Origin: Bacillales bacterium
Lineage (GTDB): Bacteria; Bacillota; Bacilli; Bacillales; DASSOY01
Assembly (NCBI GenBank): GCA_036381575.1
Contig: DASVCO010000044.1
Span: 1 to 53,458, forward strand
Length of the DNA: 53,458 bases
Reading direction: 5' to 3'
Each line of letters starts with the position of its first letter. Within the stretch, counting starts at the first letter, position 1. Position numbers and translations under genes: made by a program. Below the pieces are notes generated by a model. The model had not been told where the DNA came from, did not search any database, and saw only the letters and a program-made list of their open reading frames with translations. Positions 1 to 12,439 of the stretch are shown piece after piece.

Positions 1-34
1 ACACTGAATGCCGGCCCGGAAAGGAGATTACACT

Positions 35-1345
35 ATGGACGAAGCTTCAACCTTTCAAATCATTATCACCATCGTCATATTTATCCTAGCTTATGCGTTT
101 ATCATCTCTGAGAAGATTAACCGGACCATCATTGCTTTGGCTGGTGCTGCCCTTATGCTGTTCTTCAACTCGGTGGAACTTCACCGTGTTTTTGTTGAAC
201 ATATGCAATGGGGCACGATCACCCTTCTGGTAGGAATGATGATTCTCGTCGGCATAACGAGCAAAACCGGTGTCTTTCAATATGCTGCTGTCAAAGCGGC
301 CAAGCTGGTGAAGGGCGATCCCATGAAGATTTTGGTTATCATGTCCCTTTTGACCGCTCTTGGTTCAGCCTTTCTTGATAACGTCACGACGGTCCTTCTG
401 ATGGTTCCTGTTACCTTTTCAATTACAAGAATTCTCGGGGTCAATCCAATTCCATTTCTGATCTCGGAGGTTTTGTTTTCCAATATCGGCGGGACAGCTA
501 CCTTAATCGGCGATCCGCCCAATATTATGATCGGCCAGGCCACAGGCCTGTCTTTTAACGACTTTCTTTTTAACCTGACCCCTGTGATTATCGTCATCGC
601 GATAGTAACTGTTGTGATTCTTTACTTTATATACCGAAAACAGATGAATGTAGATGATGACCAGAAGAAAGAATTAATGCAACTGAATGAAAAGGAATTT
701 ATCAAAGACAAATCTTTAATGATCAAATCCTTGATTGTGCTCGGATTAACCATCATTGGGTTCGTTCTTCATTCAATCACCGGAATGGACCCTGCTGTAG
801 TGGCAATGAGCGGAGCCACCCTATTAATGTTGATCGGAGTGAAAGAAGAGAGTTTTGAAGAGGTCTTTTATGACGTCGAATGGGGAACGATCTTTTTCTT
901 TGCCGGATTGTTCACCCTTGTCGGCGCGCTTGTTGATGTCGGGATTATAGATTATCTCGCTTCCAAAGCTCTTGAAGTAACCGGCGGGGACATCGCTGTG
1001 GCCTCAATGTTAATTCTTTGGGTTTCTGGAGTGGCATCCGCTACAATCGACAATATTCCATATGTGGCCACAATGATTCCATTAATTCAGGAAATGATTA
1101 ACGGGCTAGATTTGTCCAGCACCAACGAGAACGTCACAGTGTTATGGTGGTCACTGGCTCTCGGTGCATGTCTTGGCGGGAACGGGACCTTGATCGGAGC
1201 TTCAGCGAACGTGATTGTCGCCGGGATGGCATCGAAAGAAGGAGACGGCTTTACCTACATTGATTTTCTTAAGATCGGTGCCCCATTAACCCTCGTGGCA
1301 CTTCTACTTTCCACAGGCTATATTTATGTAAGGTATTTAATGTGA
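35..1345 (+). CDS. ArsB/NhaD-superfamily (citrate-transporter-like) polytopic ion permease
   Basis: The 436-aa product is highly hydrophobic with many TM segments and a central charged loop (KKELMQLNEKEFIKDK), as in two-repeat ArsB/NhaD/YbiR-type permeases. AAAGGAGA lies 7 nt upstream of the ATG at 35, so the ORF-track start at 8 is probably too early. Confidence 0.75.
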   Translation: MDEASTFQIIITIVIFILAYAFIISEKINRTIIALAGAALMLFFNSVELHRVFVEHMQWGTITLLVGMMILVGITSKTGVFQYAAVKAAKLVKGDPMKILVIMSLLTALGSAFLDNVTTVLLMVPVTFSITRILGVNPIPFLISEVLFSNIGGTATLIGDPPNIMIGQATGLSFNDFLFNLTPVIIVIAIVTVVILYFIYRKQMNVDDDQKKELMQLNEKEFIKDKSLMIKSLIVLGLTIIGFVLHSITGMDPAVVAMSGATLLMLIGVKEESFEEVFYDVEWGTIFFFAGLFTLVGALVDVGIIDYLASKALEVTGGDIAVASMLILWVSGVASATIDNIPYVATMIPLIQEMINGLDLSSTNENVTVLWWSLALGACLGGNGTLIGASANVIVAGMASKEGDGFTYIDFLKIGAPLTLVALLLSTGYIYVRYLM

Positions 1346-1378
1346 AAAAGGGCAGCGAATTGCTTCGTTGCCCTTTTT
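1346..1378 (+). terminator. Rho-independent terminator after the permease gene
   Basis: GGGCAGCGAA-ttgc-TTCGTTGCCC hairpin (one mismatch) followed by TTTTT, directly after the stop codon. Confidence 0.6.
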
Positions 1379-1581
1379 ACCATATCAGGGGAGATATCAA
1401 GATGGTAAGTATTTCGTGAAGAAGAGAAATCAACATAGAGGACACGATAAAGTTGATAGATAACCACTACTGGCCCCAAGCGGGTTTAGAAAGTAGTCTT
1501 CTCGGCTCCTCTCTATGAAGCTTTGTTGGGTACAACTAAGGCCGGATTTCGCCAACGACTTGGCGCGACCTAAGTTTTGGG

Positions 1582-2283
1582 TTATATTTCACGATTTCTG
1601 TAAAACTCATGGAATAACTTCAACAACGCCCGTTTTTCAATACGGGAGACATAGCTCCTTGAAATCCCTAATTCTCTGGCGATTTCCCTCTGGGTCCGTT
1701 CTTCCTGGTTATCAAGGCCGAATCGAGCGATGACCACCTGTTGTTCACGCTGATCAAGAATATGAATGAAACTGTAAATTTTCTTTTTCTCCATGTTTAA
1801 CTGAATCATTTCCACAATATCTTCATTGTCGGATTTCAGAACATCGATCAGCGTAATTTCATTGCCTTCTTTGTCCTGTCCTATAGGATCCTGAAGCGAC
1901 ACGTCTTTTTTCGTTTTTTTCAAGGCCCGCAAATGCATAAGGATTTCATTTTCAATACAGCGAGCGGCATATGTCGCAAGCTTCGTCCCTTTTCCCCGCG
2001 AATAACTCTCGATTCCCTTGATTAAACCAATTGTGCCGATGGATATAAGATCTTCCGTATCCTCTCCGGTGTTTTCAAATTTTTTCACAATATGCGCTAC
2101 GAGCCTCAGATTATGTTCAATTAGAATATTCCTGGCTTCTTCATCTCCCTCTTCCATTCGTTTTAAGTACTTTTTCTCTTCGTCACCGGGTAACGGCTGC
2201 GGAAACGCGTTGTTTTTCACATACGAAACAAAAACCATCACTTCTTTAAAAAAGTAAGCAATGGCCGCAAAAATACCAGACAC
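1582..2283 (-). CDS. sigK: Pro-sigma-K, late mother-cell sporulation sigma factor, encoded as one uninterrupted gene
   Basis: Near-identical over long stretches to B. subtilis SigK as I recall it ([80 protein letters not shown]). The hydrophobic pro-sequence [18 protein letters not shown] is present. The likely start is the GTG at 2283, preceded by GGAGGTGAGG. The ORF-track start at 2343 lacks an SD. Confidence 0.92.
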
Positions 2284-2408
2284 GACCTCACCTCCGTTAT
2301 TCATCCATATGTGGGCGGAGGCCTGGCCGTGTCTGTACACCAAACAAATTTAATAGGAATTTGTTTGACGGGTCAAATTTGGCAAGGATCATTCATTTCC
2401 TATGCAAA

Positions 2409-2564
2409 TTAGTACATACGGATCCATTCATCTCGTTTTCTGTTCATGTCCTCGATGATCTGGTTAATCCGAATTTGATCTTCGTAGTGTTGAGCCGCTG
2501 ACATTGATTCCCGTCTGCGAATGGAAATCGATACAGTGATCAAATACAAGTTAAGTTTTAACAT
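2409..2564 (-). CDS. Small 51-aa protein, possibly YrzI-type (Bacillus tandem small hypothetical / probable sporulation protein)
   Basis: I translated it codon by codon: MLKLNLYLITVSISIRRRESMSAAQHYEDQIRINQIIEDMNRKRDEWIRMY. AAAGGAGGAA lies 6 nt upstream of the ATG. It is below the 60-aa cutoff of the ORF track. The YrzI resemblance is from memory only. In B. subtilis yrzI lies in the same yrh neighbourhood. Confidence 0.45.
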   Translation of the reverse strand: MLKLNLYLITVSISIRRRESMSAAQHYEDQIRINQIIEDMNRKRDEWIRMY

Positions 2565-2686
2565 TCTGTCTTCCTCCTTTCGAACCGGATCCTTTCACGT
2601 CAAGCCCTTCTCCTTTGTAAGCCAGTACATGACCGCGGTTTTTGTCGCATTCATTTGACAACCTCCTTTTTCATCGTATGATTTAT

Positions 2687-2724
2687 TAAAAAAGCCGTAA
2701 GTGAAGAACACCTACGGCATTTTT
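2687..2724. terminator. Bidirectional-looking hairpin flanked by an A-run and a T-run
   Basis: AAAAAAA-GCCGTAAGTG-aagaa-CACCTACGGC-aTTTTT, a 10-bp stem with one mismatch, in the sigK / motA-like intergenic region. Confidence 0.4.
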
Positions 2725-3121
2725 AACCATAAATTGAATTTTTAAACAGCAAAAAAGACAATAAAAAACACCTCAGGTTCTATCTCGACCCCAGGCAGCT
2801 TCATTGTCTTATGTAACAACTAAGATGACTTTATTTAACGAATCCTAACGGCCGAATCGAAAAATATACGATTGTCTGCAATAAAGGCTGCTTGGTATAG
2901 ATCATTTCGTTCGACCTCCTTTTCGTAAGTAAACTTAACTTTATTTGGCAGAACCCTGAATAAAGTCAAAGCCTCTGTAGGCGCAAATACCCCAAGTCAT
3001 ACTTGATTAACAAATAGGATTATACTTCCTCTTTTCATTTTTGTAAAGCCTTTTTTGAAATAAAATTTATCGGTCAAGATTGACGTGCCGGGACATACGT
3101 TTAAGTAACGGGGGTGCTTGC

Positions 3122-4633
3122 ATGGGAAATACTACAACGGTGATTCTCGCAATTATTGGATTTATTGTGTTTTTCGGCCTTATTGCCCATTTTCAAACCG
3201 GTTATTTTCTCAAGAAATGGCTGAATGAAATTCAAAACCTTAAAACCGATGGGAAAGAATCCTTTCTCTCAACTCCATGGATCGGACAGATGGTGAAAGA
3301 ATATGAGCATTACCGGATTGCCGGTACATCGGTCAACAGCCAGGCCTTAATCGAAAAATATTTTTTCAAGCAACCAGTTCGATTGCTGGGGCTGTTCCAA
3401 ACACCTGTCGGCAACGTTGTCAAAATGCTGCAGCAGTTGCCTTCGTTTTCAATTATTATTGGAGTGCTTGGCACATTCATTGGCCTGACCATGTCAATGT
3501 TTTCAATGCAGAACATTTTATTGTCGCTGAGTGACCAGTCTTCCGTTCTATCCGTTTCCAATATCGTCTCCTCAATCAGCCAGCCGTTCCAGGGAATGAG
3601 CATCGCCTTTCTGACCAGCATAGCCGGTATCGGCGGAGCACTTTTTTTAACGATCCTGCAAGCGGGTTTCTTCTCCAAGGGGCGGGCTATTTCGTATTTA
3701 CAGGCGGAAATAGCTGCTGAATGCGAGTCTTTTCTGGACCATGAATTGAACGCGCATCTTGAGGCCCAGAAACCGCAGGATACGATGGAGAAACTGCTGG
3801 ATCGTCTCGTTGCAAAGGTAGAAGAAAGTTTCCAGAAAAGCGTGGGTAGCTTCGGTGAAAAAATGACCCATTTCACCGGTGGATTGGAGCACGCAATGGA
3901 AGAAGTGCAAAAAATCCTGACTACCCAACGGGAATACAGCGAAGCCTTTGGCGAAAGCACTGAGGCGTTGCAACAGTTCGGCGGGCGATTCTCGGAGACG
4001 GTCGAGAAACTCGGATCTGTTAATTCAGGCATGGAGCGCGGCATCCAGAAGCTTGGCGATCAAGTAAACCATTTCGAAAAGCAGCTCGGGGGATTGTTCA
4101 AAAAACGCGAAAACGATGACCGCCGGATGGAACAGGTTATTCAGCGATCCGACATGATGATGGAACAAAGCAACAAGAAGACCGAAGAGCTCGGGGAAGC
4201 CTTCCTTCATGCGATGAACCAACAAATGCAACAATACAATGACCAATACGATTCAATGGAAAGGAAAATCGGGCAGCAGCAGGATGAGTGGTATTTCCGC
4301 TATCAGGAAAAACAAGATCATTACCAGCGGGCTGCAGATGCTTTCGGAGCCTCTGTACAACAATTGGAAAAAGCCATCTACGACATGGCCGAAAAAATGA
4401 AGCGGGACCTATCCGAACAGATCAATACTGACCGCGAACGGCAATCCCGTATGCAAATGGATCGAGGCCGCGATGACATGAGAGAGGTTACCCGAGCGGT
4501 CGAATCCTTGAATCGGGATTTGCAGAATATCGAACGCTATCTGGAACAATTCTACCAGGTGGTCTTGCGTATGTATGAGGATGAGCAAAGGAAACGAGAG
4601 CCGCGGCGCATGCCTTCACAAATTATGGAGTAG
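3122..4633 (+). CDS. MotA/TolQ/ExbB-family channel protein with a long C-terminal coiled-coil tail (ZorA-like architecture)
   Basis: TM1 is VILAIIGFIVFFGLIAHF. After a roughly 90-aa loop come the family-typical TM2 (SFSIIIGVLGTFIGLTMSMF) and TM3 (MSIAFLTSIAGIGGALFLTILQAGFF). About 300 aa of E/Q/R/K/M-rich helical sequence follows, with recurring (F/L)G motifs. The likely start is the ATG at 3122 (MGNTTT), preceded by GGGGGTG. Confidence 0.75.
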   Translation: MGNTTTVILAIIGFIVFFGLIAHFQTGYFLKKWLNEIQNLKTDGKESFLSTPWIGQMVKEYEHYRIAGTSVNSQALIEKYFFKQPVRLLGLFQTPVGNVVKMLQQLPSFSIIIGVLGTFIGLTMSMFSMQNILLSLSDQSSVLSVSNIVSSISQPFQGMSIAFLTSIAGIGGALFLTILQAGFFSKGRAISYLQAEIAAECESFLDHELNAHLEAQKPQDTMEKLLDRLVAKVEESFQKSVGSFGEKMTHFTGGLEHAMEEVQKILTTQREYSEAFGESTEALQQFGGRFSETVEKLGSVNSGMERGIQKLGDQVNHFEKQLGGLFKKRENDDRRMEQVIQRSDMMMEQSNKKTEELGEAFLHAMNQQMQQYNDQYDSMERKIGQQQDEWYFRYQEKQDHYQRAADAFGASVQQLEKAIYDMAEKMKRDLSEQINTDRERQSRMQMDRGRDDMREVTRAVESLNRDLQNIERYLEQFYQVVLRMYEDEQRKREPRRMPSQIME

Positions 4634-5335
4634 GTGAGAACGGTGCGATATCGAAAAAGCTACTTCCGCGAGCAGGAGCCAAATGAGGAATATTTCTGGC
4701 CATCGTTCACCGATATGATGACCATGATGGTCCTTGTCATCCTGTTTATAGCAGTGATCGCTTTCGTACAAAGCATTTACGAAGCATACGAAGAATCCCA
4801 TGTACGGGAAGAACTAGCTCATGCTACAAATATTAAGGACCATATATCGGATATCATTCGCCAACAATTAGAGGAAGATCTCGGTGAAGACAAGGTGGTC
4901 AAAGGACCGAATGACACCATTTCAATCCAGGCGGATGTCTTATTTGATTCGGGAAGCACAAAGATCAAACCCGAAGGCAAAAAAATCCTGAATTCCGTGG
5001 CCGACGCCATCGTACAAATTATCAACCATAATAAGTTAAACCGGTATTTGAATACCATTTTGATTGAGGGCCACACAGATTCCGTACCCTATGACAACTG
5101 GACGTTGTCTACGGATCGGGCTGTGGCGGTTGTGAAATATATGTTAAAAGCCAATCCCAAGCTGGCAGAGAAGCACTATGCCAAATACCTTGCCGCCACC
5201 GGATATTCCAAATACCACCCTGTGGCAAAGGGAGATTCTCCGGAAGCCCGCAGGCAAAATCGACGCATTTCCTTCCAAATTGTACTGGACGACAGCACAT
5301 GGACACAAAGAATTAAAAAACTGATGGCCCAATAG
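4634..5335 (+). CDS. MotB/OmpA-family peptidoglycan-binding stator partner (ZorB-like)
   Basis: The N-terminal single TM carries the conserved Asp (FWPSFTDMMTMMVLVILFIAV). The OmpA-like domain motifs are present (LFDSGSTKIKPEG, IEGHTDSVPYDNWTLSTDRAVAVVKYM, RRQNRRISFQIV). The start is adjacent to the stop of the upstream gene (TAG-GTG). An alternative GTG at 4643 has better SD spacing. Confidence 0.8.
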   Translation: MRTVRYRKSYFREQEPNEEYFWPSFTDMMTMMVLVILFIAVIAFVQSIYEAYEESHVREELAHATNIKDHISDIIRQQLEEDLGEDKVVKGPNDTISIQADVLFDSGSTKIKPEGKKILNSVADAIVQIINHNKLNRYLNTILIEGHTDSVPYDNWTLSTDRAVAVVKYMLKANPKLAEKHYAKYLAATGYSKYHPVAKGDSPEARRQNRRISFQIVLDDSTWTQRIKKLMAQ

Positions 5336-5363
5336 CAGCCTGATCTGAACAAAAACAAAAAAC

Positions 5364-5381
5364 GAGGCGCCTCCGCGCCTC
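5364..5381. terminator. Bidirectional terminator between convergent genes
   Basis: Perfect hairpin GAGGCGC-ctcc-GCGCCTC, preceded by AAAAACAAAAAA and followed by a T-rich stretch. It lies between the motB-like gene (+) and the yrhC-like gene (-). Confidence 0.6.
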
Positions 5382-5383
5382 TG

Positions 5384-5638
5384 TTATATATCTTCATTTT
5401 CTAGCTGGCCCTTTAATTTCATAACCCTGCGATGAAAGAAAATAGATGAGATAAGTGCCACTACTGCTCCGGAACTCAATAACAACTGATCCTGGCCTGT
5501 CCTGCCGTCAAACGGGATCAATGAACCCATCGCCAGATAGATACTCAATACTAGCAATACCAGACTGAAATTCTTATAATCGGTGATTTTATGCTGTAAA
5601 TCTTTGAATTTCTTCTCTCCCACAAAATCCACCTCCAT
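5384..5638 (-). CDS. YrhC-like small two-TM membrane protein (paralog 1)
   Basis: Paralogous to the next gene (DYKNFSLVLLVLSIYLAMGSLIPFDGRTG versus DYKHFSAVLLFLSASLSMGAVVPFQARTG). Its position next to mccB matches yrhC in B. subtilis. The start is taken at MEVDF, preceded by GAGGT. Confidence 0.6.
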   Translation of the reverse strand: MEVDFVGEKKFKDLQHKITDYKNFSLVLLVLSIYLAMGSLIPFDGRTGQDQLLLSSGAVVALISSIFFHRRVMKLKGQLENEDI

Positions 5639-5709
5639 TTCTACCTCTCTTCTCAAGTTTAACATGATTTCGCCGTGAGTAGGTTTTCCAATTTAAGTTA
5701 TTCCCCAAT

Positions 5710-5736
5710 CAAAAAACGAAGACACACATTGTGTCC
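5710..5736 (-). terminator. Terminator after YrhC-like paralog 2
   Basis: On the minus strand, the hairpin GACACA-atg-TGTGTC is followed by TTCGTTTTTT. Confidence 0.5.
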
Positions 5737-5739
5737 CCG

Positions 5740-5979
5740 TTACGCTTGTTCTTTTTCAAATTGTTGTTTAATCCGGCCCATTTTCCGATAGAAAAGGCCT
5801 GAACCAATCATGAACGCAATTCCTGCCACGCTTAACAGCACTTCATCAAATCCAGTCCTGGCTTGAAAAGGAACAACCGCCCCCATCGACAAGGAAGCAC
5901 TCAAGAAAAGCAATACCGCGCTGAAATGTTTATAATCGTTCATTTTACTTTTGAGTTCCATCTGCTTTTTCTCGTTCAT
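5740..5979 (-). CDS. YrhC-like small two-TM membrane protein (paralog 2)
   Basis: GGAGGGA lies 6 nt upstream of the ATG. The 79-aa product has two hydrophobic segments. It sits directly downstream of mccB, as yrhC does in B. subtilis. Confidence 0.65.
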   Translation of the reverse strand: MNEKKQMELKSKMNDYKHFSAVLLFLSASLSMGAVVPFQARTGFDEVLLSVAGIAFMIGSGLFYRKMGRIKQQFEKEQA

Positions 5980-6099
5980 GTGGATTCCCTCCGTTTCTCT
6001 TAATTCAAGAGTAACACCTATTCGGTGCTTTGGAGGGCCTATCTATTGTCCGTTCAATGAATGATTTGTTACGAGGTTGTGAAAACCCGGGATCCGAAT

Positions 6100-7233
<1,134 letters not shown>

Positions 7234-8157
7234 TTACACGCCCCCTTGATAAATCTTTTTACTTAAATAACGTTCGCTTGAATCAGGAAAGACTGTAACG
7301 ATGTTTGTCCCCGGTTTCGCCGACTCTGCTTCCATTAAACATGCCTCAAGGGCTGCGCCTGAGGAACTGCCAACAAGCAATCCTTCTTTCTCCGAAAGTT
7401 CCTTCACCCGAACAAACGAACAATCATCAGAAATCGTATGAATTTCATCGAAATAGGACCGATCCATATAATCCGGCAAAAACTCCATTCCAATGCCTTC
7501 TGTTTTATGAGGGCCTGGTTCTCCGCCTTTGATTATTGAACCTTCCGGTTCTACAATAACCGTCTTGACAACGGAATTCTTCTCTTTCAGGTAACGGGCC
7601 GTTCCCATGAAGGTTCCGCCGGTTCCAGCTCCTGCTACAAATACATTGACTTTGCCGTCAGTTTGCCGCCAAATTTCCGGCCCGAGGGTTTTATAATACG
7701 TCCGCGGATTGGCAGGGTTCCCAAATTGTTGCGGCGAGTAGGAGTTCGGGATTTCTTCAAGCAGTTCTCCCGTTTTTTTGATCGCCCCACGCATTCCATC
7801 ACTTGTGGGAGTGTGAACAATCTTTGCCCCGAGCGCCTTCATCAATTCTTGTTTCTCGATGCTAAACTGTTCAGGAACGCAAAACATCACTGTAAACCCA
7901 CTGTTTACTGCTGCCAATGCAAGACCAATACCTGTATTCCCGGCAGTCGGCTCAATCACCGTGCCCCCCGGTTTTAACTTACCAGTCTCCACTGCCTCTT
8001 TTAACAATTCCACTCCTAGCCGGTCTTTGATGCTGCCACCGGGATTATAAAATTCAAGTTTCGCAAACAAGCGAACCCCTTCCGGGAGAGGAAACTTTGT
8101 AATTTCCATCAGTGGAGTATTCCCAATTAACTCGTGAACATCTCGATAATAGTCCAT
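7234..8157 (-). CDS. mccA: O-acetylserine-dependent cystathionine beta-synthase (CysK/CBS fold)
   Basis: ELIGNTPL...LEFYNPGGSIKDR...GNTGIGLA...GTGGT motifs of the PLP-dependent cysteine synthase family. AGGTGG lies 7 nt upstream of the ATG at 8157. The stop abuts the mccB start. Confidence 0.85.
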   Translation of the reverse strand: MDYYRDVHELIGNTPLMEITKFPLPEGVRLFAKLEFYNPGGSIKDRLGVELLKEAVETGKLKPGGTVIEPTAGNTGIGLALAAVNSGFTVMFCVPEQFSIEKQELMKALGAKIVHTPTSDGMRGAIKKTGELLEEIPNSYSPQQFGNPANPRTYYKTLGPEIWRQTDGKVNVFVAGAGTGGTFMGTARYLKEKNSVVKTVIVEPEGSIIKGGEPGPHKTEGIGMEFLPDYMDRSYFDEIHTISDDCSFVRVKELSEKEGLLVGSSSGAALEACLMEAESAKPGTNIVTVFPDSSERYLSKKIYQGGV

Positions 8158-8168
8158 GATTTCGCCAC

Positions 8169-9422
8169 CTAATCTATTTGCCAACTGTCCTGATATTGCT
8201 CTTGCTCCCTGGTTAGGGTATCGATATCTATGCCTAGTGCCTCCAATTTAAACTGTGCAACTTTTTGATCAAGTTCATAAGGCACATCCAGTACACAGGC
8301 GCCGATTTTTGCGTAGTTTTCATTGACATAAGCCAGCGAAGCCGCCTGCAGGGCAAAGGTCATATCCATAATTTCCGCCGGATGGCCGTCGCCTGCGGAC
8401 AAATTAACAAGTCGGCCTTCCGCAAGCAAATACAATTTCCGTCCGTCCTTCAATTCGAATTCCTCGATATCTTTTCGGACCGTACGGCTTGAGACAGCCA
8501 GCTCATTCAGTTCCGGCTTATTAATTTCAATATCGAAATGGCCGGCATTAGCCAAAATCGCACCGTCTTTCATATTAGCCATGTGTTCTCCGCGGATAAC
8601 ATCCCTGTTACCGGTCACTGTGACGAAATAATCGCCGTGTTTTGCCGCTTCGCTCATTGTCATGACCTCGAAACCATCCATATAGGCTTCAATTGCTTTA
8701 ATGCTGTCCACTTCTGTGACAATAACTTTGGCACCCAATCCTTTGGCACGCATGGCAACACCGCGTCCACACCAGCCATAGCCGGTTACAACAACTGTTT
8801 TACCCGCTACAATCAAGTTTGTAGTCCGATTAATGCCATCCCATACGGATTGTCCCGTACCATAACGATTGTCGAATAAATACTTGCAGTAGGCATCATT
8901 AACCGCGATCATCGGGAATTTCAGTTCCCCGGTTTTTTCAAGAGCACGGTTCCGAATGACCCCGGTTGTTGTCTCTTCACATCCGCCGCGGAGCTTTTCC
9001 AACAGGTCCTGGCGCTCGGAATGAAGAATTGTAACAAAGTCCCCGCCGTCATCAATAATCAAATCAGGGTTGATATCCAATGTTTTCATCAGGTGTTCCT
9101 TGTACTCGTCGGGAGACGGATTATATTTCGCAAAAACTGTAAGTCCATCCTCAACGAGTGCTGCGGCTATATCATCCTGGGTTGACAATGGGTTGCTCCC
9201 GGTGATTGCCACTTCAGCCCCCCCGGCTTTGACAACTTTTGCAAGATAAGCAGTTTTGGCTTCCAAATGTAAGGAAATAGCAACCTTTAAACCTTTAAAA
9301 GGCTGTTCTTTTTCAAACTGTTCCCGAATGCGGTTTAATACCGGCATATGTTCTTTTACCCAATCAATCTTTAAATGGCCTTCTTTAGCCAGGCTCATAT
9401 CGCGGACAATACTGTTTTCCAT
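8169..9422 (-). CDS. ahcY: Short-form adenosylhomocysteinase-family hydrolase (SAH or S-inosylhomocysteine hydrolase)
   Basis: Family motifs are present: [27 protein letters not shown], the NAD-binding [12 protein letters not shown], and GHFDIEI. The 417-aa length is typical of the short archaeal/Firmicute form. Confidence 0.88.
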
Positions 9423-9450
9423 TTTGATAAGTCACACTCCTGTGTTCGGA

Positions 9451-10749
9451 TTATTGCTTCAATAACTGAAACATGCGGTTTGCTTCATAAATAACCTTTT
9501 CCTCGTCGACAGTCAAGCATTCACGGTTTCTTACAACTGGCTTCCCCTGTACAAAAACATCTTTCACATCCCGGCCGGAGGCCGAATAGACCACATGTGA
9601 AACCGGGTCGTTTTTCGGATGGAAAAAGGCCTGGGCGGCATCAATCACAATGAAATCAGCCTCTTTTCCAACTTCAAGACTTCCTATTTGATCTTTTAAC
9701 CAAACCGCATCTGCCCCCTCAACAGTCGCCATCCGCAATGCCTGATCCGCTGAAATCAGCGTAGGGTCATTATGTATTCCCTTATGAAGCAATGCAACTT
9801 GCCTTAATTCCTCGAACAAATCAAGATTATTATTGGAAGCGGAACTATCTGTCGCCAGGGAAACCGTAACGCCTTTTTCCAGCATTTTCGGCACCGGAGC
9901 GACCCCGCTGCCAAGTTTCAAATTACTGATAGGGTTGTGCGAGACCTTCACATCGTAATCGGCAAGAATATCAATTTCCTCATCATTCACGTGAACGGCA
10001 TGAGCAACCAGTGTTGGCCTGTCAAAAACACCAAGCTTTTGAAGATGCTTTACTGGCCTCTCCCCGAAATCCTTCACGTTTTGCTCGACCTCAAATTGAG
10101 TTTCAGACATATGAATATGAACTGGAACCCCGATTTCCGCTGATTTAACGGCGATTTGTTCGATATATTCAGGCGGGCAAGTATAAGGCGCGTGCGGCGA
10201 CAACATAGTAGTTATTCTGCCGTTTGCTTGCTGCTCCCACTCTTGTACAAACTGAACGGATTCTTCCAGTTTTTCCTGGCGGCTTTCTTCAGAGCCAAAG
10301 CCAATTATACCTCTGCTTAATCGTGCTCGTATGCCGGAAACCTCCACCGCCTTCGCCACTTCATCCATGTTATCGTACATGTCCACAAAAGTAGTCGTGC
10401 CCGTACGAAGCATCTCAACTATTGACAAATAAGCGCCCCATTTTGTATGTTCGGGGGTATATTGCCCCTCCATGGGCCACATCTTCTCCTCAAGCCATTG
10501 CTGCAAGGGCAAATCATCCGCATATCCTCGCAACAAAGACATCGGTGTATGGCCATGGGTGTTAACCAGTCCCGGTAACACATAATTTCCCTGAGCATCA
10601 ATCACCTCATCATATTTTGAAAGATCCTCAGGAACTTTTCCTACATAAGTGATTTTTCCGTTTTCAAAAGCGACGGCACCGTTGTCAATACAATCGTTAT
10701 TTGCATTAACTGTCAATATAAGCCCGTTGATCAGAATCGATTTCGACAA
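9451..10749 (-). CDS. mtaD: 5-methylthioadenosine/S-adenosylhomocysteine deaminase (amidohydrolase superfamily)
   Basis: Metal-binding NTHGHTPMSLLRG motif, and later HMSET and HAVH motifs typical of MtaD/TRZ-ATZ amidohydrolases. The start codon is TTG. Confidence 0.8.
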   Translation of the reverse strand: MSKSILINGLILTVNANNDCIDNGAVAFENGKITYVGKVPEDLSKYDEVIDAQGNYVLPGLVNTHGHTPMSLLRGYADDLPLQQWLEEKMWPMEGQYTPEHTKWGAYLSIVEMLRTGTTTFVDMYDNMDEVAKAVEVSGIRARLSRGIIGFGSEESRQEKLEESVQFVQEWEQQANGRITTMLSPHAPYTCPPEYIEQIAVKSAEIGVPVHIHMSETQFEVEQNVKDFGERPVKHLQKLGVFDRPTLVAHAVHVNDEEIDILADYDVKVSHNPISNLKLGSGVAPVPKMLEKGVTVSLATDSSASNNNLDLFEELRQVALLHKGIHNDPTLISADQALRMATVEGADAVWLKDQIGSLEVGKEADFIVIDAAQAFFHPKNDPVSHVVYSASGRDVKDVFVQGKPVVRNRECLTVDEEKVIYEANRMFQLLKQ

Positions 10750-10822
10750 TTTGGCGGAGCACTCCTTTCCTATAACTCTTTACCCTTCCAAGATGTCCCT
10801 GAATGTATAATAACAATCGGTA

Positions 10823-11461
10823 TCATATTTTCACAGCTTCGATTAAAAACACATATCGATTCAGCCGGGTGAAATTCACACTGAATCCATTCGTTGTAAA
10901 CATTTCCTTGAGTGTTTCAAGAAAAGGATAATACTCCGTTTTCAAGTCATGAAGCAAGTTATTGTACCCTTGTTCCTCAACCCGTTGCAGGAGACGCATC
11001 TTCGCTTCCCGATCCTCAAACAAGGTATCTGCAAAAACAATCTTACCACCTTTCGGCAATCGTTCGCTATACTTCCGAATGGCCAACTCTTTCTCATCGT
11101 CCGTTAAATGATGGAAGGCATACGTACTGACAATCGTTTCAACTGGATGTTCAAACTCAGGATATTGCAGAAAATCCCCATCGACCAGCTTCATTTCCGG
11201 GAATCTTGTTCTAGTTTTTTCTCTCATAGCCTTTGACGGCTCGATCCCATAAACCTCGTGGCCGCTCTTTCGCAATTTCTCAGTTAAATTGCCGGTTCCA
11301 ACGCCAAATTCAAGAACTCTTCCCTTTGCTCTTTTCGCAACCTTTGTCAAGATCGAATCATAATTCTCGAACACCTCATGGTATTCATTGTCGCGACTGT
11401 TGACCGTATCATCATAGCTGTCTGCCCAATCCTCGAACATATCGACAAATTCACGACCCAT
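10823..11461 (-). CDS. yrrT: Class I SAM-dependent methyltransferase, first gene of the Met-to-Cys operon
   Basis: SAM-binding motif VLEFGVGTGNLT. Its position upstream of the SAH-recycling and mccAB genes matches the B. subtilis yrrT operon. The start is taken at MGREF (ATG at 11461). Confidence 0.8.
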   Translation of the reverse strand: MGREFVDMFEDWADSYDDTVNSRDNEYHEVFENYDSILTKVAKRAKGRVLEFGVGTGNLTEKLRKSGHEVYGIEPSKAMREKTRTRFPEMKLVDGDFLQYPEFEHPVETIVSTYAFHHLTDDEKELAIRKYSERLPKGGKIVFADTLFEDREAKMRLLQRVEEQGYNNLLHDLKTEYYPFLETLKEMFTTNGFSVNFTRLNRYVFLIEAVKI

Positions 11462-11699
11462 TTTCTCACCCCACACAATCTATATAAATGATATACGCCG
11501 ATTCACGCAGACGTTGTTGCAGGATCTGGCACTCCTGATCTTCGTTTTTTTGAAATTTAAACGCCTTTTGTAAACACCTTATAAAAAAAGAAAAATCTGC
11601 TGAACAAAAATAAATCCTACTATTATAGTATGCTTTATCGGGTTTTCCGTTAAAAACGTACCACATCTTTTACCTTTTGTAAAAAAGCACGCATTTAAA

Positions 11700-11721
11700 A
11701 TGCCGGGCGCAAGGCCCGGCA
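11700..11721 (-). terminator. Terminator after yrrS
   Basis: Perfect 9-bp hairpin ATGCCGGGC-nnnn-GCCCGGCAT just after the yrrS stop, followed by a T-rich stretch on the minus strand. Confidence 0.6.
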
Positions 11722-11728
11722 TTAGTCT

Positions 11729-12439
11729 TTATGGAAGATTCTCTTTATATACCTTTTCAACACTAGTCGGCTTCCAGCCTTTGTTCTTTATCCAGCGTAA
11801 GTGAACGATGTACCACTCATGCGGTTTTGCGTTGGTACTGAGCTTTCCAATGGATTGCTGCGGGCCTCCGCCGTTAGCTAACCGCCATAAAATAAATTCA
11901 TCTTCATCCAGTCCCGTAAGACCGGTCGCATACAAAAGAGCTTCCACCTTTTCATTCCAGTCTACCGAACCCCGTTCATATGATGAGACGTGCGGCGGTT
12001 CCTGACTGGTTCCAATCGGTTCCCACGGGCCATTTAGACTGCCCGACAACTCCTTGTCTTTCTTCTTGCTCTCTTCTTTATTTTCATCCGGATTATTCAT
12101 TTGATCATCATCTGTGTTGGATTCAGTTGTTCCGTCTGTCGTATCGGTTGCAGCTTCGCCCGTCCCATTCTGATCAGCCGAACTCTCATCGTTATTCGCT
12201 TGATCCTGGTCGGAATTATCGCTTGCTGCACCATTTGAACCTTCATTTCCTCCGCCGGAGCCATTCGCCGAAGTTTGGGCGGACTGATCCGCTTTTTCCG
12301 GGCCTCCGAAAAACATACTTCCGGCAACAATCACTATTAAAATACAAACAATCGCAATTAATAAGTTCATCAGCCGATTTTGCTTTCTCTTTCGACCGCG
12401 TGATGACAGACGTGAACGCTCTGTTTGATAATCGCTCAT
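11729..12439 (-). CDS. yrrS: YrrS-like (DUF1510) membrane-anchored protein with a low-complexity acidic linker
   Basis: Basic N-terminus, a single TM (LMNLLIAIVCILIVIVAGSMFF), a long D/E/N/S/G-rich linker, and a conserved C-terminal domain. Synteny next to pbpI. Confidence 0.7.
   Translation of the reverse strand: MSDYQTERSRLSSRGRKRKQNRLMNLLIAIVCILIVIVAGSMFFGGPEKADQSAQTSANGSGGGNEGSNGAASDNSDQDQANNDESSADQNGTGEAATDTTDGTTESNTDDDQMNNPDENKEESKKKDKELSGSLNGPWEPIGTSQEPPHVSSYERGSVDWNEKVEALLYATGLTGLDEDEFILWRLANGGGPQQSIGKLSTNAKPHEWYIVHLRWIKNKGWKPTSVEKVYKENLP

What the first reader, a model, noticed from the sequence alone, without database searches (positions are those of the whole stretch)
3122..5335. 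Stand-alone ZorA/ZorB-like stator module: a MotA/ExbB channel with a roughly 300-aa coiled-coil tail plus a MotB/OmpA anchor, with no flagellar or Zorya effector partners
Seen in the sequence: a two-gene operon bounded by non-coding DNA upstream and a bidirectional terminator downstream. Gene 1 has the three-TM TolQ/ExbB/MotA layout. TM1 is at residues 6-24 of the protein starting at MGNTTT. The signature TM2 and TM3 are GVLGTFIGL and IAFLTSIAGIGGAL. About 300 residues of E/Q/R/K/M-rich helical sequence follow, with recurring (F/L)G motifs (SFGEKM, AFGEST, QFGGRF, KLGSVN, KLGDQV, QLGGLF, AFGASV). Gene 2 has the MotB-type TM with the conserved ion-binding Asp (SFTDMMT) and an OmpA-like peptidoglycan-binding domain. 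Established knowledge: 5:2 ion-driven motors (MotAB, ExbBD, TolQR, ZorAB) share this core. Among them, only ZorA of the Zorya anti-phage system is known to carry a long cytoplasmic tail, and Zorya needs ZorC/D or ZorE effectors. Inference: none of those effectors, and no flagellar, Tol or Ton genes, are in this window. The pair lies between sigK and the yrhC-mccB block, and its base composition looks host-like. It could therefore be a minimal or novel tail-bearing stator in a Gram-positive spore former. Candidate roles are phage or envelope sensing with a distal effector, or a sporulation-related envelope function.
Basis: partly seen in the sequence, partly recalled or inferred. Interest (0 to 1): 0.8.

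Follow-up and report, generated by a model that had tools for sequence, protein, structure and literature searches.

The report
Stand-alone ZorAB-like motor in spore formers
Two adjacent genes encode a cell-wall-anchored, ion-driven motor related to the Zorya anti-phage motor; it has no Zorya effector genes, is inherited as a normal chromosomal gene in a small set of spore-forming bacteria, and sits behind a conserved promoter of the type used in the mother cell during sporulation.

Summary
Gene 1 (3122-4633, 503 aa) is a three-TM protein. By HMM and by predicted fold its closest relatives are ZorA, then ExbB/TolQ. It carries a roughly 320-residue helical tail with heptad periodicity. Gene 2 (4643 or 4634 to 5335) is ZorB-like, with an invariant TM Asp and an OmpA-type peptidoglycan-binding domain. 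A hairpin terminator follows.

The pair forms a small, sharply bounded family: 15 clusters at 50% identity among 1.84 billion proteins. It occurs only in endospore-forming Bacillota. The two genes are always adjacent, and no third gene is conserved across more than three genomic contexts. Neighbours are housekeeping genes. Divergence tracks that of the neighbouring MccB (r about 0.95), and the pair is present in at least 15 of 17 named Fictibacillus species. This is unlike a mobile defence island.

New here: nearly all orthologs carry a two-block motif, (g)CAAG(t) or ATATT, then 15-16 nt, then CATAnnTAt, 27-50 nt upstream of the start codon. Its -10 block matches that of sigK promoters in the same genomes and the sigE/sigK -10 consensus.

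Best reading: a ZorAB-type motor co-opted for a sporulation-stage envelope function. The function itself is unknown. It is a new variant of a known kind.

The parts
3075..3078 (+). -35-like block CAAG (ggtCAAGatt), 15 nt upstream of the CATA block
   Evidence: Block conserved as (g/t)CAAG(t) in most lineages, as AAATATT in the main Fictibacillus clade, and as cCATATT in Schnuerera ultunensis, always 15-16 nt from CATA.
3094..3103 (+). -10-like block CATACGTTTA, of the mother-cell sigma (sigE/sigK) type
   Evidence: CATA lies 27-50 nt upstream of the start codon in 51 of 53 distinct ortholog upstream regions, against 87 of 434 (20%) control genes in the same loci. The same -10 form occurs in sigK promoters of the same genomes. 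Literature consensus: PMC517825, PMC3789822.
3110..3116 (+). ribosome-binding site GGGGGTG
   Evidence: Read directly from the sequence.
3122..4633 (+). gene 1: ZorA-like A subunit, 503 aa
3137..3193 (+). TM1 (residues 6-24)
   Evidence: Hydrophobic helix, pLDDT 81-91; conserved in orthologs.
3194..3430 (+). cytoplasmic loop (residues 25-103): two helices plus a beta-hairpin (H52-66, H73-81, E85-88, E92-95), with the invariant N72 and nearly invariant E78 of the NTQALIE motif
   Evidence: AF2 secondary structure. [quoted passage not shown]
3431..3508 (+). TM2 (about residues 104-129) with LP107...GVLGT118FIGLT123
   Evidence: Invariant residues. Aligns to EcZorA P136...GIIGT147F and to Shewanella ZorA GVIGTFMGL. 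T147 belongs to the EcZorA ion-selectivity filter (PMC11946911).
3590..3667 (+). TM3 (about residues 157-182) with G158-M-S160-x-A-F-x-T165-S166
   Evidence: Invariant residues; aligns to the AFLTSVWG motif of Shewanella ZorA.
3668..4630 (+). cytoplasmic helical tail (residues 183-503). Conserved membrane-proximal segment CExxLDH...KPxDxxExxLDR...FG (residues 200-290) and conserved segment QDEWxYRYQEK...SVxQLEK...KRD (residues 385-430)
4643..5335 (+). gene 2: ZorB-like B subunit, 230 aa (233 aa if started at GTG 4634)
4712..4714 (+). codon of the TM Asp (D27 in 233-aa numbering, WPSFTDMM)
   Evidence: At least 95% conserved in 51 orthologs and invariant in 22 database homologs. It is the equivalent of ZorB D26 and MotB D32 (PMC11946911).
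4940..5263 (+). OmpA-like peptidoglycan-binding domain (residues 103-210), with conserved EGHTD149...LSxxR162A
   Evidence: Pfam PF00691 7.6e-15, above its cutoff; conservation; fold.
5364..5381 (.). GC-rich hairpin GAGGCGCCTCCGCGCCTC, terminator-like on both strands, shared with the convergent yrhC-like gene

Best explanation
The two genes encode a ZorAB-type, peptidoglycan-anchored, ion-driven membrane motor. By analogy with the solved ZorA5B2 complexes, five copies of gene 1 would surround two copies of gene 2. The Asp in the gene 2 TM helix and the Thr/Ser residues in gene 1 TM2 and TM3 would form the ion path. The OmpA-like domain of gene 2 would fix the complex to the wall. The roughly 320-residue helical tail of gene 1 would project into the cytoplasm as the output element.

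Unlike Zorya, this lineage has no effector genes in cis. It is a vertically inherited, core-like chromosomal gene pair of a few endospore-forming lineages. It also carries a conserved promoter of the mother-cell sporulation type (sigE/sigK-like). I therefore propose that it is made in the mother cell during sporulation and works as an envelope-coupled motor or sensor. It could sit either in the mother-cell membrane or in the outer forespore membrane, with its peptidoglycan-binding domain facing septal or cortex peptidoglycan and its tail facing the mother-cell cytoplasm. It would act on or signal to a partner encoded elsewhere, rather than as a canonical anti-phage system.

Shown: homology, predicted fold, conserved catalytic and anchor residues, strict pairing, lack of a conserved third gene, vertical inheritance, and the conserved promoter-like motif. 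Inferred: 5:2 stoichiometry, rotation, which sigma factor acts, mother-cell expression, localisation, and the actual cellular function.
For: ZorAB kinship. PADLOC ZorA1 3.7e-13 and ZorB1 5e-37, full length. Foldseek top hits for gene 1 are ZorA 8vvn, 8qyk and 8qyd, followed by ExbB/TolQ. For gene 2 they are ZorB 8vvn_B (TM-score 0.59) and 8vvi_A. PDB profile hits: only ZorA for the A-subunit N-terminal domain, and 8vvn_B at 2.2e-21 for the B subunit. The nearest relatives outside the family are ZorA proteins: 28 of 36 hit PADLOC ZorA1, best 8e-135. The cytoplasmic loop has the Zorya-specific two-helix plus beta-hairpin arrangement (PMC12505986). Invariant T118, T123, T165 and S166 and the B-subunit Asp are present.

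Stand-alone and core-like. The pair is adjacent in 51 of 54 loci, and no third gene is shared among at least three contexts. The same holds in Schnuerera ultunensis, the B. horti clade and the Oceanobacillus paralog family. Neighbours are housekeeping genes. Pairwise identity correlates with that of MccB (r = 0.96 and 0.94 over 190 pairs). The pair is present in at least 15 of 17 named Fictibacillus species.

Sporulation promoter. CATA lies 27-50 nt upstream in 51 of 53 distinct upstream regions, against 20% of controls. The two-block pattern A[AT][AG]-N16-CATA occurs in 36 of 53 family regions against 19 of 399 controls. The -35 block reads ATATT (sigE-like) in Fictibacillus, S. ultunensis and the B. 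horti clade. The -10 block, CATAnGTAT, is the same as in sigK promoters of the same genomes and matches the published forms 'ATA-N16-CATATATA' and 'canonical -10 box for mother cell sigma factors' (PMC3789822; PMC517825). No sigma-70-like promoter lies within 400 nt upstream on the + strand. All hosts identified are endospore formers. In one clade a SleB/CwlJ-type cortex-lytic hydrolase gene lies next to the pair.
Against: There are no expression data; the sigma-factor assignment rests on sequence motifs alone. In most lineages, including this window, the -35 block reads CAAG, so the position that discriminates sigE (T) from sigK (C) is A, which matches neither. The ortholog loci are phylogenetically related, so the counts overstate the number of independent observations, although roughly 12-15 deep lineages all keep CATA. 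The family is absent from B. subtilis, the B. cereus group and C. difficile, so it cannot be a universal sporulation component. ZorAB homology on its own points to phage defence, and trans-encoded effectors cannot be excluded because whole genomes could not be scanned. The AF2 model is a monomer with moderate confidence in the tail (pLDDT 45-79), so the tail's architecture and length are unknown. Pfam MotA_ExbB and all NCBIfam ZorA/ZorB/MotB models score below their thresholds.
Confidence: 0.5

Rival explanations
1. It is an anti-phage system: a minimal or split Zorya. Either the effectors are encoded elsewhere in the genome and are recruited by the tail, or the motor itself kills or arrests the infected cell, for example by uncontrolled ion flux (abortive infection).
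For: Both proteins are closest to ZorA and ZorB by HMM and by fold. The long tail is the feature that recruits effectors in E. coli Zorya (PMC11946911). Trans-encoded partners could not be excluded with these tools.
Against: No defence genes were found near the pair, in the scanned ORFs of the window or in the fetched loci. Distribution is genus-wide with synteny and co-divergence with housekeeping genes, unlike the patchy, island-borne distribution typical of defence systems. The conserved promoter is of a sporulation type rather than constitutive. In E. coli all four Zorya genes are needed for defence, and Zorya is under-represented in single-membrane bacteria (PMC11946911).
Confidence: 0.25
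2. It is a vegetative envelope motor or sensor unrelated to sporulation, for example one that monitors or remodels the thick Gram-positive wall. On this view the conserved upstream motif is a binding site or an unusual sigA or ECF-type promoter.
For: The pair has a peptidoglycan anchor plus an ion-driven core. A CwlO-like NlpC/P60 wall hydrolase gene lies directly upstream in Sporolactobacillaceae loci. The -35 block deviates from the strict sigE/sigK consensus in most lineages.
Against: The invariant CATA block, its spacing to the -35 block and its distance to the start codon fit mother-cell promoters, and match sigK promoters in the same genomes. Three lineages have a textbook ATA(TT)-N14-16-CATA. 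No ECF-type (xGAAC...CGT) or sigma-70-like motif is present.
Confidence: 0.17
3. It is a flagellar stator paralog of the MotAB or MotPS type.
For: Public annotations call the B subunit 'chemotaxis protein MotB' or 'flagellar motor protein MotB'. The peptidoglycan-binding domain resembles that of MotS and MotB.
Against: The A subunit has 3 TM helices, not 4, has no Pfam MotA_ExbB hit and carries a 320-aa tail. NCBIfam MotB and MotS models score 50-76 bits against cutoffs of 264-312. Flagellar MotB matches only the C-terminal domain, whereas ZorB matches the full length. No ortholog lies in a flagellar locus.
Confidence: 0.02
4. It is a decaying remnant of a Zorya system that has lost its effectors and no longer functions.
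For: No effector genes are adjacent.
Against: Both ORFs are intact in all but a few of 54 loci in the species-representative genome set. Ion-path and peptidoglycan-binding residues are invariant, the B subunit is 55-60% identical across families, and a promoter motif is conserved.
Confidence: 0.02

Closest known systems
Zorya ZorAB core (type I: E. coli 8QYD, Shewanella 8VVN; type II: Sulfuricurvum 8VVI)
   Same: The A subunit has 3 TM helices, the LP...G(I/V)(I/L)GTFxGL and AFxTS motifs, a cytoplasmic loop of two helices plus a beta-hairpin, and a long all-helical C-terminal tail. The B subunit has an N-terminal TM Asp and a C-terminal OmpA-like peptidoglycan-binding domain. Both are the best HMM, PDB-sequence and Foldseek matches.
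   Different: There are no ZorC/ZorD, ZorE or ZorF/ZorG genes next to the pair in any locus. The tail is about 320 aa, against about 500 aa in EcZorA. Sequence identity is only 15-18% for A and 18-26% for B. Scores are below NCBIfam ZorA and ZorB cutoffs. Hosts are monoderm spore formers. The pair is vertically inherited and core-like. It has a sporulation-type promoter.
ExbBD / TolQR
   Same: Same superfamily fold for the A subunit (Foldseek target-normalised TM-score 0.33-0.60, rmsd about 6-7 A over about 230 residues for most ExbB chains), and the 3-TM topology.
   Different: The B subunit has an OmpA-like peptidoglycan-binding domain rather than the ExbD/TolR periplasmic fold. No TonB or TolA partner is present and there is no outer membrane. 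The A subunit has a long tail. There are no sequence-level PDB hits to ExbB or TolQ.
Flagellar stators MotAB / MotPS / PomAB
   Same: The B subunit has a TM Asp plus an OmpA-like peptidoglycan anchor, and both are presumably ion-driven.
   Different: The A subunit lacks the fourth TM helix and the rotor-contacting cytoplasmic domain. The pair is not in flagellar loci. NCBIfam MotB and MotS models score far below their cutoffs.
Other stand-alone ZorAB-like pairs in Bacillota (for example Oceanobacillus halotolerans WIXL01000003.1, 607 aa + 232 aa)
   Same: A two-gene module with housekeeping neighbours and no effectors; a long-tailed A subunit and a ZorB1-like B subunit (PADLOC 9.5e-69).
   Different: A different family: 27% identity to gene 1 over 61% of its length, E = 8e-13. 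It is recognised by Pfam MotA_ExbB. No clear CATA two-block promoter was seen upstream.

Membership tests
MotA/ExbB/TolQ superfamily (A subunit of 5:2 motors) | Pfam PF01618 MotA_ExbB match above the gathering score | tested here: not met
   No PF01618 hit for gene 1 even at E<=1. 12 of 36 of the nearest out-family relatives do hit it.
MotA/ExbB/TolQ superfamily (A subunit of 5:2 motors) | Fold: TM helices with conserved TM2 GxxGT and TM3 AxxT(S/T) ion-path motifs around a cytoplasmic domain | tested here: met
   AF2 model with pLDDT 80-91 in residues 1-210. Foldseek probability 1.00 to ZorA, ExbB and TolQ. Motifs are invariant in orthologs and align in register with ZorA.
MotA/ExbB/TolQ superfamily (A subunit of 5:2 motors) | A5B2 stoichiometry and ion-driven rotation | not testable with these tools
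   No multimer prediction or experiment was available.
Zorya anti-phage system (ZorA/ZorB plus effectors) | ZorA HMM match | tested here: inconclusive
   PADLOC ZorA1 3.7e-13 (47 bits), ZorA3 2.1e-12, ZorA2 3.7e-9, with no clear subtype. NCBIfam ZorA_2 scores 49.9 bits against a cutoff of 100, and the other ZorA models are far below theirs.
Zorya anti-phage system (ZorA/ZorB plus effectors) | ZorB HMM match with a TM Asp and a peptidoglycan-binding domain | tested here: met
   PADLOC ZorB1 5e-37, covering profile positions 9-229 of 232. PDB 8vvn_B 2.2e-21. Foldseek 8vvn_B 1.3e-9. Asp and GHTD...R are conserved. NCBIfam ZorB1 and ZorB2 equivalog cutoffs (400 bits) are not reached (47-50 bits).
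Zorya anti-phage system (ZorA/ZorB plus effectors) | Zorya-type cytoplasmic loop (two helices plus a beta-sheet) and a long helical C-terminal tail in ZorA | tested here: met
   H52-66, H73-81, E85-88 and E92-95; tail helices 223-339, 347-444 and 451-491; periodicity 3.54 residues. The criterion comes from PMC12505986 and PMC11946911.
Zorya anti-phage system (ZorA/ZorB plus effectors) | Co-located effector genes (ZorC+ZorD, ZorE, or ZorF+ZorG) on the same strand | tested here: not met
   No third gene is conserved in 54 loci. Window neighbours are SigK, YrhC, MccB and similar housekeeping genes. The same holds for distant orthologs.
Zorya anti-phage system (ZorA/ZorB plus effectors) | Protects against phage | not testable with these tools
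   Requires an experiment.
Flagellar stator MotAB/MotPS | Curated MotB or MotS model above cutoff; 4-TM MotA; flagellar gene context | tested here: not met
   NCBIfam MotB 75.7 bits against a cutoff of 301, and MotS 56.5 against 264. The A subunit has 3 TM helices. No flagellar neighbours.
Mother-cell sporulation regulon (sigE/sigK-dependent genes) | -10 element CATA...TA at promoter distance from the start codon | tested here: met
   51 of 53 ortholog upstream regions against 20% of controls. Same form as sigK promoters in the same genomes. Matches the published -10 (PMC517825, PMC3789822).
Mother-cell sporulation regulon (sigE/sigK-dependent genes) | -35 element ATA (sigE) or AC (sigK), 16-17 nt upstream of CATA | tested here: inconclusive
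   ATATT or CAT in the correct register in Fictibacillus, S. ultunensis and the B. horti clade. In the window and most other lineages it reads CAAG, with A at the discriminating position.
Mother-cell sporulation regulon (sigE/sigK-dependent genes) | Transcription dependent on sigE or sigK during sporulation | not testable with these tools
   No expression data exist for any host of the family. The family is absent from model spore formers: all named members come from other genera.

The most novel reading that the evidence does not exclude
A ZorAB-type 5:2 rotary motor has been recruited into the endospore developmental programme. It would be made in the mother cell under sigE or sigK and inserted into the engulfing or outer forespore membrane. 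There it would be anchored to septal, germ-cell-wall or cortex peptidoglycan and would use the ion gradient to drive or sense envelope remodelling, through a coiled-coil tail that reaches tens of nanometres into the mother-cell cytoplasm. That would be the first non-defence, non-motility role for the Zorya branch of motors. It would also hint that Zorya defence evolved from, or gave rise to, a housekeeping wall-coupled motor.
Probability: 0.3. Interest if true: 0.85.

Novelty: new variant of a known kind. Interest (0 to 1): 0.62.

Why it matters
ZorAB is so far known only as the sensor-motor of an anti-phage system that needs soluble nucleases, and it is reported to be under-represented in single-membrane bacteria. 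This finding describes a clean, effector-less ZorAB lineage that behaves like a core gene of spore-forming Gram-positives and carries a developmental promoter. If that holds, this motor architecture (a peptidoglycan anchor plus a long rotating or signalling tail) has a cellular job outside immunity. That gives a tractable system for asking what the ZorA tail does mechanically in the absence of effectors, and how the motor is switched on by changes in the wall. It could also add a new, lineage-specific component to the sporulation envelope machinery. On the practical side, the B subunit is widely mis-annotated as 'flagellar motor/chemotaxis protein MotB', and the A subunit as 'hypothetical'.

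Tried and rejected
- **Pfam on gene 1.** No MotA_ExbB hit, only spurious coiled-coil families below their cutoffs.
- **Full-length profile against PDB sequences.** Dominated by unrelated coiled coils, so I repeated the search with the N-terminal domain only.
- **Rfam on 1-12000.** Nothing found, so there is no riboswitch or leader RNA in the 550-nt upstream spacer.
- **Sigma-70 scan.** No credible + strand promoter within 400 nt upstream of gene 1.
- **Search for a conserved third gene.** Candidates immediately upstream each turned out to be clade-specific synteny with ordinary functions: DUF975 membrane protein in Fictibacillus, ROK regulator in the F. enclensis group, CwlO-like hydrolase in Sporolactobacillaceae, NadE and small ORFs in Guptibacillus.
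- **SpoIIID site (GGACAAG) as the reading of the -35 block.** Rejected because the base before CAAG varies (T, G or A).
- **sigG/sigF reading of the promoter.** Rejected because the -10 block is one base longer than CATnnTA and there is no GGnnAnAnT.
- **Recurrent (F/L)G motifs as an internal repeat.** They are enriched in this sequence, but only two have Gly in most orthologs.
- **Literature searches** for orphan or stand-alone ZorAB, or for a sporulation stator, found nothing relevant.
- **Not possible.** I could not fetch whole genomes to look for trans-encoded Zorya effectors, and could not model the 5:2 complex.

Full report
**1. What is in the sequence**

The two ORFs are real and tightly coupled.

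- Gene 1 runs from ATG 3122 to 4633 and encodes 503 aa. GGGGGTG lies at 3110-3116.
- A longer ORF from TTG 3080 is unlikely. Orthologs start at the MGNTT-equivalent residue, and the public gene call for this contig is the same 503 aa (P0001).
- Gene 2 follows directly. The mechanical ORF starts at GTG 4634, but the public call is 230 aa (P0066). That corresponds to GTG 4643, which also has better spacing from the GGAG/AGGTGA ribosome-binding site.
- A GC-rich hairpin at 5364-5381 scores as a terminator on both strands. It is shared with the convergent yrhC-like gene.
- GC content of the pair is 0.45-0.50, against 0.38-0.50 in the rest of the first 12 kb, so it is not obviously foreign.

**2. 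Protein identities**

*Gene 1.*
- Pfam does not recognise gene 1 as MotA_ExbB, even at E<=1.
- PADLOC ZorA models do hit it: ZorA1 3.7e-13, ZorA3 2.1e-12, ZorA2 3.7e-9.
- NCBIfam ZorA_2 scores 49.9 bits against a cutoff of 100.
- An AlphaFold2 model built on 25 orthologs has mean pLDDT 71.9, and 80-91 across residues 1-210. It shows TM1, then a cytoplasmic loop of two helices and a beta-hairpin, then TM2 and TM3. Three long helices follow: 223-339, 347-444 and 451-491.
- Foldseek against the PDB ranks ZorA first (8vvn, 8qyk, 8qyd), then ExbB and TolQ.
- A profile of the N-terminal domain alone hits only ZorA chains in the PDB. The alignment is in register for LP...GV(I/L)GTFxGL and AFxTS.
- Here T118 aligns with EcZorA T147 and P107 with P136. 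Both of those EcZorA residues were probed by mutagenesis in E. coli (PMC11946911).
- The two-helix plus beta-sheet loop is described as unique to Zorya-type A subunits (PMC12505986).
- The tail has only 3 prolines in 321 residues. Its hydrophobic periodicity is 3.54 residues, with power 121 against 21.6 +/- 8.5 in shuffles (0 of 500). It is a coiled-coil-like helix, not disorder.

*Gene 2.*
- It matches PADLOC ZorB1 over the full length at 5e-37.
- Its OmpA domain passes Pfam's cutoff.
- By sequence its best solved relative is Shewanella ZorB, at 2.2e-21 over the full length. Flagellar MotB, MotS and PomB match only the C-terminal domain.
- By predicted fold (pLDDT 80.6), type I and type II ZorB rank first.
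- The TM Asp (WPSFTD27MM) and the peptidoglycan-binding residues (EGHTD...LSxxRA) are invariant or nearly so.

**3. The family and its context**

- A word-indexed search found about 60 clusters at 90% identity. All are annotated 'hypothetical' or 'MotA/TolQ/ExbB domain-containing'.
- They come from Fictibacillus, Pseudalkalibacillus/Guptibacillus, Alkalihalobacillus, several 'Bacillus' species, Sporolactobacillaceae (Pullulanibacillus, Scopulibacillus, Tuberibacillus, Camelliibacillus) and Caldalkalibacillus.
- An exhaustive HMMER scan of 1.84 billion representatives gives only 15 clusters at E<=1e-30. After some fragments, there is a gap down to about 1e-13.
- The proteins beyond that gap are ZorA proteins. 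28 of 36 hit PADLOC ZorA1 (best 8e-135), and 12 of 36 hit Pfam MotA_ExbB. The family is therefore a small, sharply bounded, divergent branch of ZorA.
- The most distant ortholog I found is in Schnuerera ([Clostridium]) ultunensis, class Tissierellia. It is 30% identical for A and 50% for B.

Across 54 loci from species-representative genomes, I called ORFs and clustered the neighbours.

- A and B are adjacent in 51 of 54 loci. The exceptions include a truncated contig and ORF-calling problems.
- No other gene is shared across contexts. There are at least three contexts:
  - (a) sigK ... [A B] yrhC mccB mccA. This occurs in the window, Guptibacillus/Pseudalkalibacillus, several Bacillus species and Sporolactobacillaceae.
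  - (b) Nucleoside hydrolase, DUF393, DUF975 > [A B], in most Fictibacillus.
  - (c) ROK regulator > [A B], in the F. enclensis group.
- More distant members are likewise stand-alone. This covers S. ultunensis, the B. horti clade and the separate Oceanobacillus family.
- The ORFs of the 53-kb window that were scanned with Pfam are housekeeping or sporulation-related. They include a CitMHS transporter, SigK, two YrhC paralogs, a DUF1510 protein, a PBP, MltG, RecD2/YrrC, MnmA, RarA, an amidase, SecD and a SpoVB-like protein. The large ORFs that were not scanned have the sizes and order of AlaS, AspS, HisS, RelA and RecJ, by my reading of B. subtilis synteny. Nothing resembles ZorC, ZorD or ZorE.
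- Pairwise identities of A and of B correlate with those of the neighbouring MccB, at r = 0.96 and 0.94 over 190 pairs.
- A evolves fast (about 44% identity where MccB is about 79%). B is intermediate (about 58%).
- The pair is found in at least 15 of 17 named Fictibacillus species.

Taken together this is the signature of a vertically inherited core-like gene, not of a mobile defence island.

**4. A conserved sporulation-type promoter (new observation)**

- I aligned the upstream regions on the start codon. This revealed an invariant CATA 27-50 nt upstream in 51 of 53 distinct regions. The two exceptions read AATA.
- Only 87 of 434 (20%) upstream regions of other genes in the same loci have CATA in that window.
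- Anchoring on CATA shows a second block 15-16 nt upstream, (g/t)CAAG(t), and a -10 block CATAnnTAt.
- In the window these are CAAG at 3075-3078 and CATACGTTTA at 3094-3103.
- The pattern A[AT][AG]-N16-CATA at the right distance occurs in 36 of 53 family regions, against 19 of 399 controls. Most of the remaining family regions differ by a 1-nt shift in spacing.
- In the main Fictibacillus clade the -35 block is AAATATT. In S. ultunensis it is cCATATT-N14-CATATGTAT. In the B. horti/Caldalkalibacillus clade it is aCATGTTTAGG followed by CATATATTT.
- These match the published sigE form, 'ATA-N16-CATATATA', and the 'canonical -10 box for mother cell sigma factors' (PMC3789822).
- sigE and sigK promoters share the same -10 and differ at one -35 position, T against C (PMC517825).
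- As an internal positive control I examined sigK, a known mother-cell gene, in the same loci. Its upstream regions read gtACAGACAC-N17-CATA(T/G)G(G/T)AT. This is the same -10 form in the same register.
- No sigma-70-like promoter lies within 400 nt upstream on the + strand, and no Rfam element is present.

Caveats:
- In the window and most lineages the discriminating -35 position is A. That is neither the T of sigE nor the C of sigK.
- The loci are related, so the counts are not independent.
- There are no expression data.

I put the probability that this is a mother-cell sigma promoter at roughly 0.65-0.7.

**5. Mechanism**

By analogy with the solved ZorA5B2 complexes, five A subunits would surround two B subunits.
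- Ions would pass via B-D27 and A-T118, T123, S160, T165 and S166.
- The B-subunit OmpA domain would fix the stator element to peptidoglycan.
- Ion flow would turn, or conformationally drive, the A ring and its helical tail.
- The tail is about 320 residues. That would be up to about 40 nm if it is one continuous coiled coil, and about 17 nm if the three predicted helices fold back. This could not be resolved with a monomer model.
- The most conserved tail segments are the membrane-proximal CExxLDH...KPxDxxExxLDR...FG region (residues 200-290) and a QDEWxYRYQEK...QLEK...KRD segment (residues 385-430). Both are candidate interaction surfaces.

The pair has no cis effectors, is core-like and carries a mother-cell-type promoter. 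I therefore favour a sporulation-stage envelope function, in either the mother-cell membrane or the outer forespore membrane. The peptidoglycan-binding domain would face septal or cortex peptidoglycan, and the tail would face the mother-cell cytoplasm. The main rival is a split or minimal Zorya-like defence. It cannot be excluded, because whole genomes could not be scanned for trans-encoded effectors.

**6. Comparison and novelty**

- The pair works like ZorAB and is its closest relative.
- It fails two membership criteria for a Zorya system. No effector genes are adjacent, and the curated NCBIfam cutoffs are not reached.
- It is not a flagellar stator. The A subunit has 3 TM helices, MotB and MotS scores are far below cutoff, and there is no flagellar context.
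- It is not ExbBD or TolQR, because the B subunit has an OmpA-type domain.
- The Zorya structure paper notes that Zorya is under-represented in single-membrane bacteria, and that all four genes are needed for defence (PMC11946911).
- I found no paper describing stand-alone ZorAB in Bacillota, or a sporulation-linked stator.

I class this as a new variant of a known kind. Interest is moderate to high, because the function and the sporulation link remain inferences.

Noticed in passing
window 5384-5665 (-) and 5740-5979 (-): Two tandem YrhC-like small membrane proteins (Pfam PF14143, 3.9e-18 and 4.6e-15). L001, the closest relative, also has two; most other related loci have a single copy. This looks like a local duplication.
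   Followed up: partly
window 2303-2336 (-), upstream of sigK (1582-2343, -): sigK is intact, with no skin-like insertion. It has a textbook mother-cell promoter, ACAGACAC-N17-CATATGGAT, conserved upstream of sigK in related loci. I used it as a positive control.
   Followed up: yes
window 2409-3047: The 550-nt spacer upstream of gene 1 is not empty on the minus strand. It holds a 51-aa ORF (2409-2564) with a strong GGAGG site and no Pfam hit, possible micro-ORFs of about 19 and 24 aa with GGAGG sites (near 2600-2655 and 2850-2920), a terminator hairpin at 2694-2718, and an 11/12 sigma-70-like promoter at 3047-3019 that points away from gene 1.
   Followed up: no
L058 8515-9759 (-) and L059 2951-4324 (-): In the Bacillus horti / Caldalkalibacillus-like clade, the gene convergent with the ZorB-like gene encodes LysM-LysM-Hydrolase_2 (PF07486, the SleB/CwlJ spore-cortex-lytic domain). 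This is a spore-related neighbour in two independent contigs.
   Followed up: partly
L031, L037, L042, L043, L046 (about 6600-7830, +): In Sporolactobacillaceae, a coiled-coil plus NlpC/P60 (CwlO-like) wall hydrolase gene lies directly upstream of the pair on the same strand, and odhB-odhA lie downstream.
   Followed up: no
L057 4981-8918: Dethiothermospora halolimnae has a different three-gene arrangement: an SLH-domain protein (625 aa), a short ZorA-like MotA_ExbB protein (366 aa, no long tail) and a ZorB1-like OmpA protein (305 aa), followed by a response-regulator receiver gene. S. ultunensis also has an SLH protein two genes upstream of its pair.
   Followed up: no
window 8169-10749 (-): Between mccA and the yrrT-like methyltransferase, the window carries two genes (417 aa and 432 aa). 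From reading their sequences I take them to be an adenosylhomocysteinase and an amidohydrolase. They are absent from the related loci, which have two other genes there instead (about 155 aa and about 234 aa). This suggests a different S-adenosylhomocysteine recycling route.
   Followed up: no
public annotations of orthologs: The B subunit is annotated variously as 'OmpA family protein', 'chemotaxis protein MotB' or 'flagellar motor protein MotB'. The last two labels are not supported: curated MotB and MotS models score far below their cutoffs.
   Followed up: yes
gene 1 C-terminus (window 4610-4630) and orthologs: The extreme C-terminus keeps a short motif, [IVL]P[ST][RQ][VI]x[ED], in about half of the lineages, and (R/K)ERRY in the B. 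horti clade. It could be a docking peptide.
   Followed up: no
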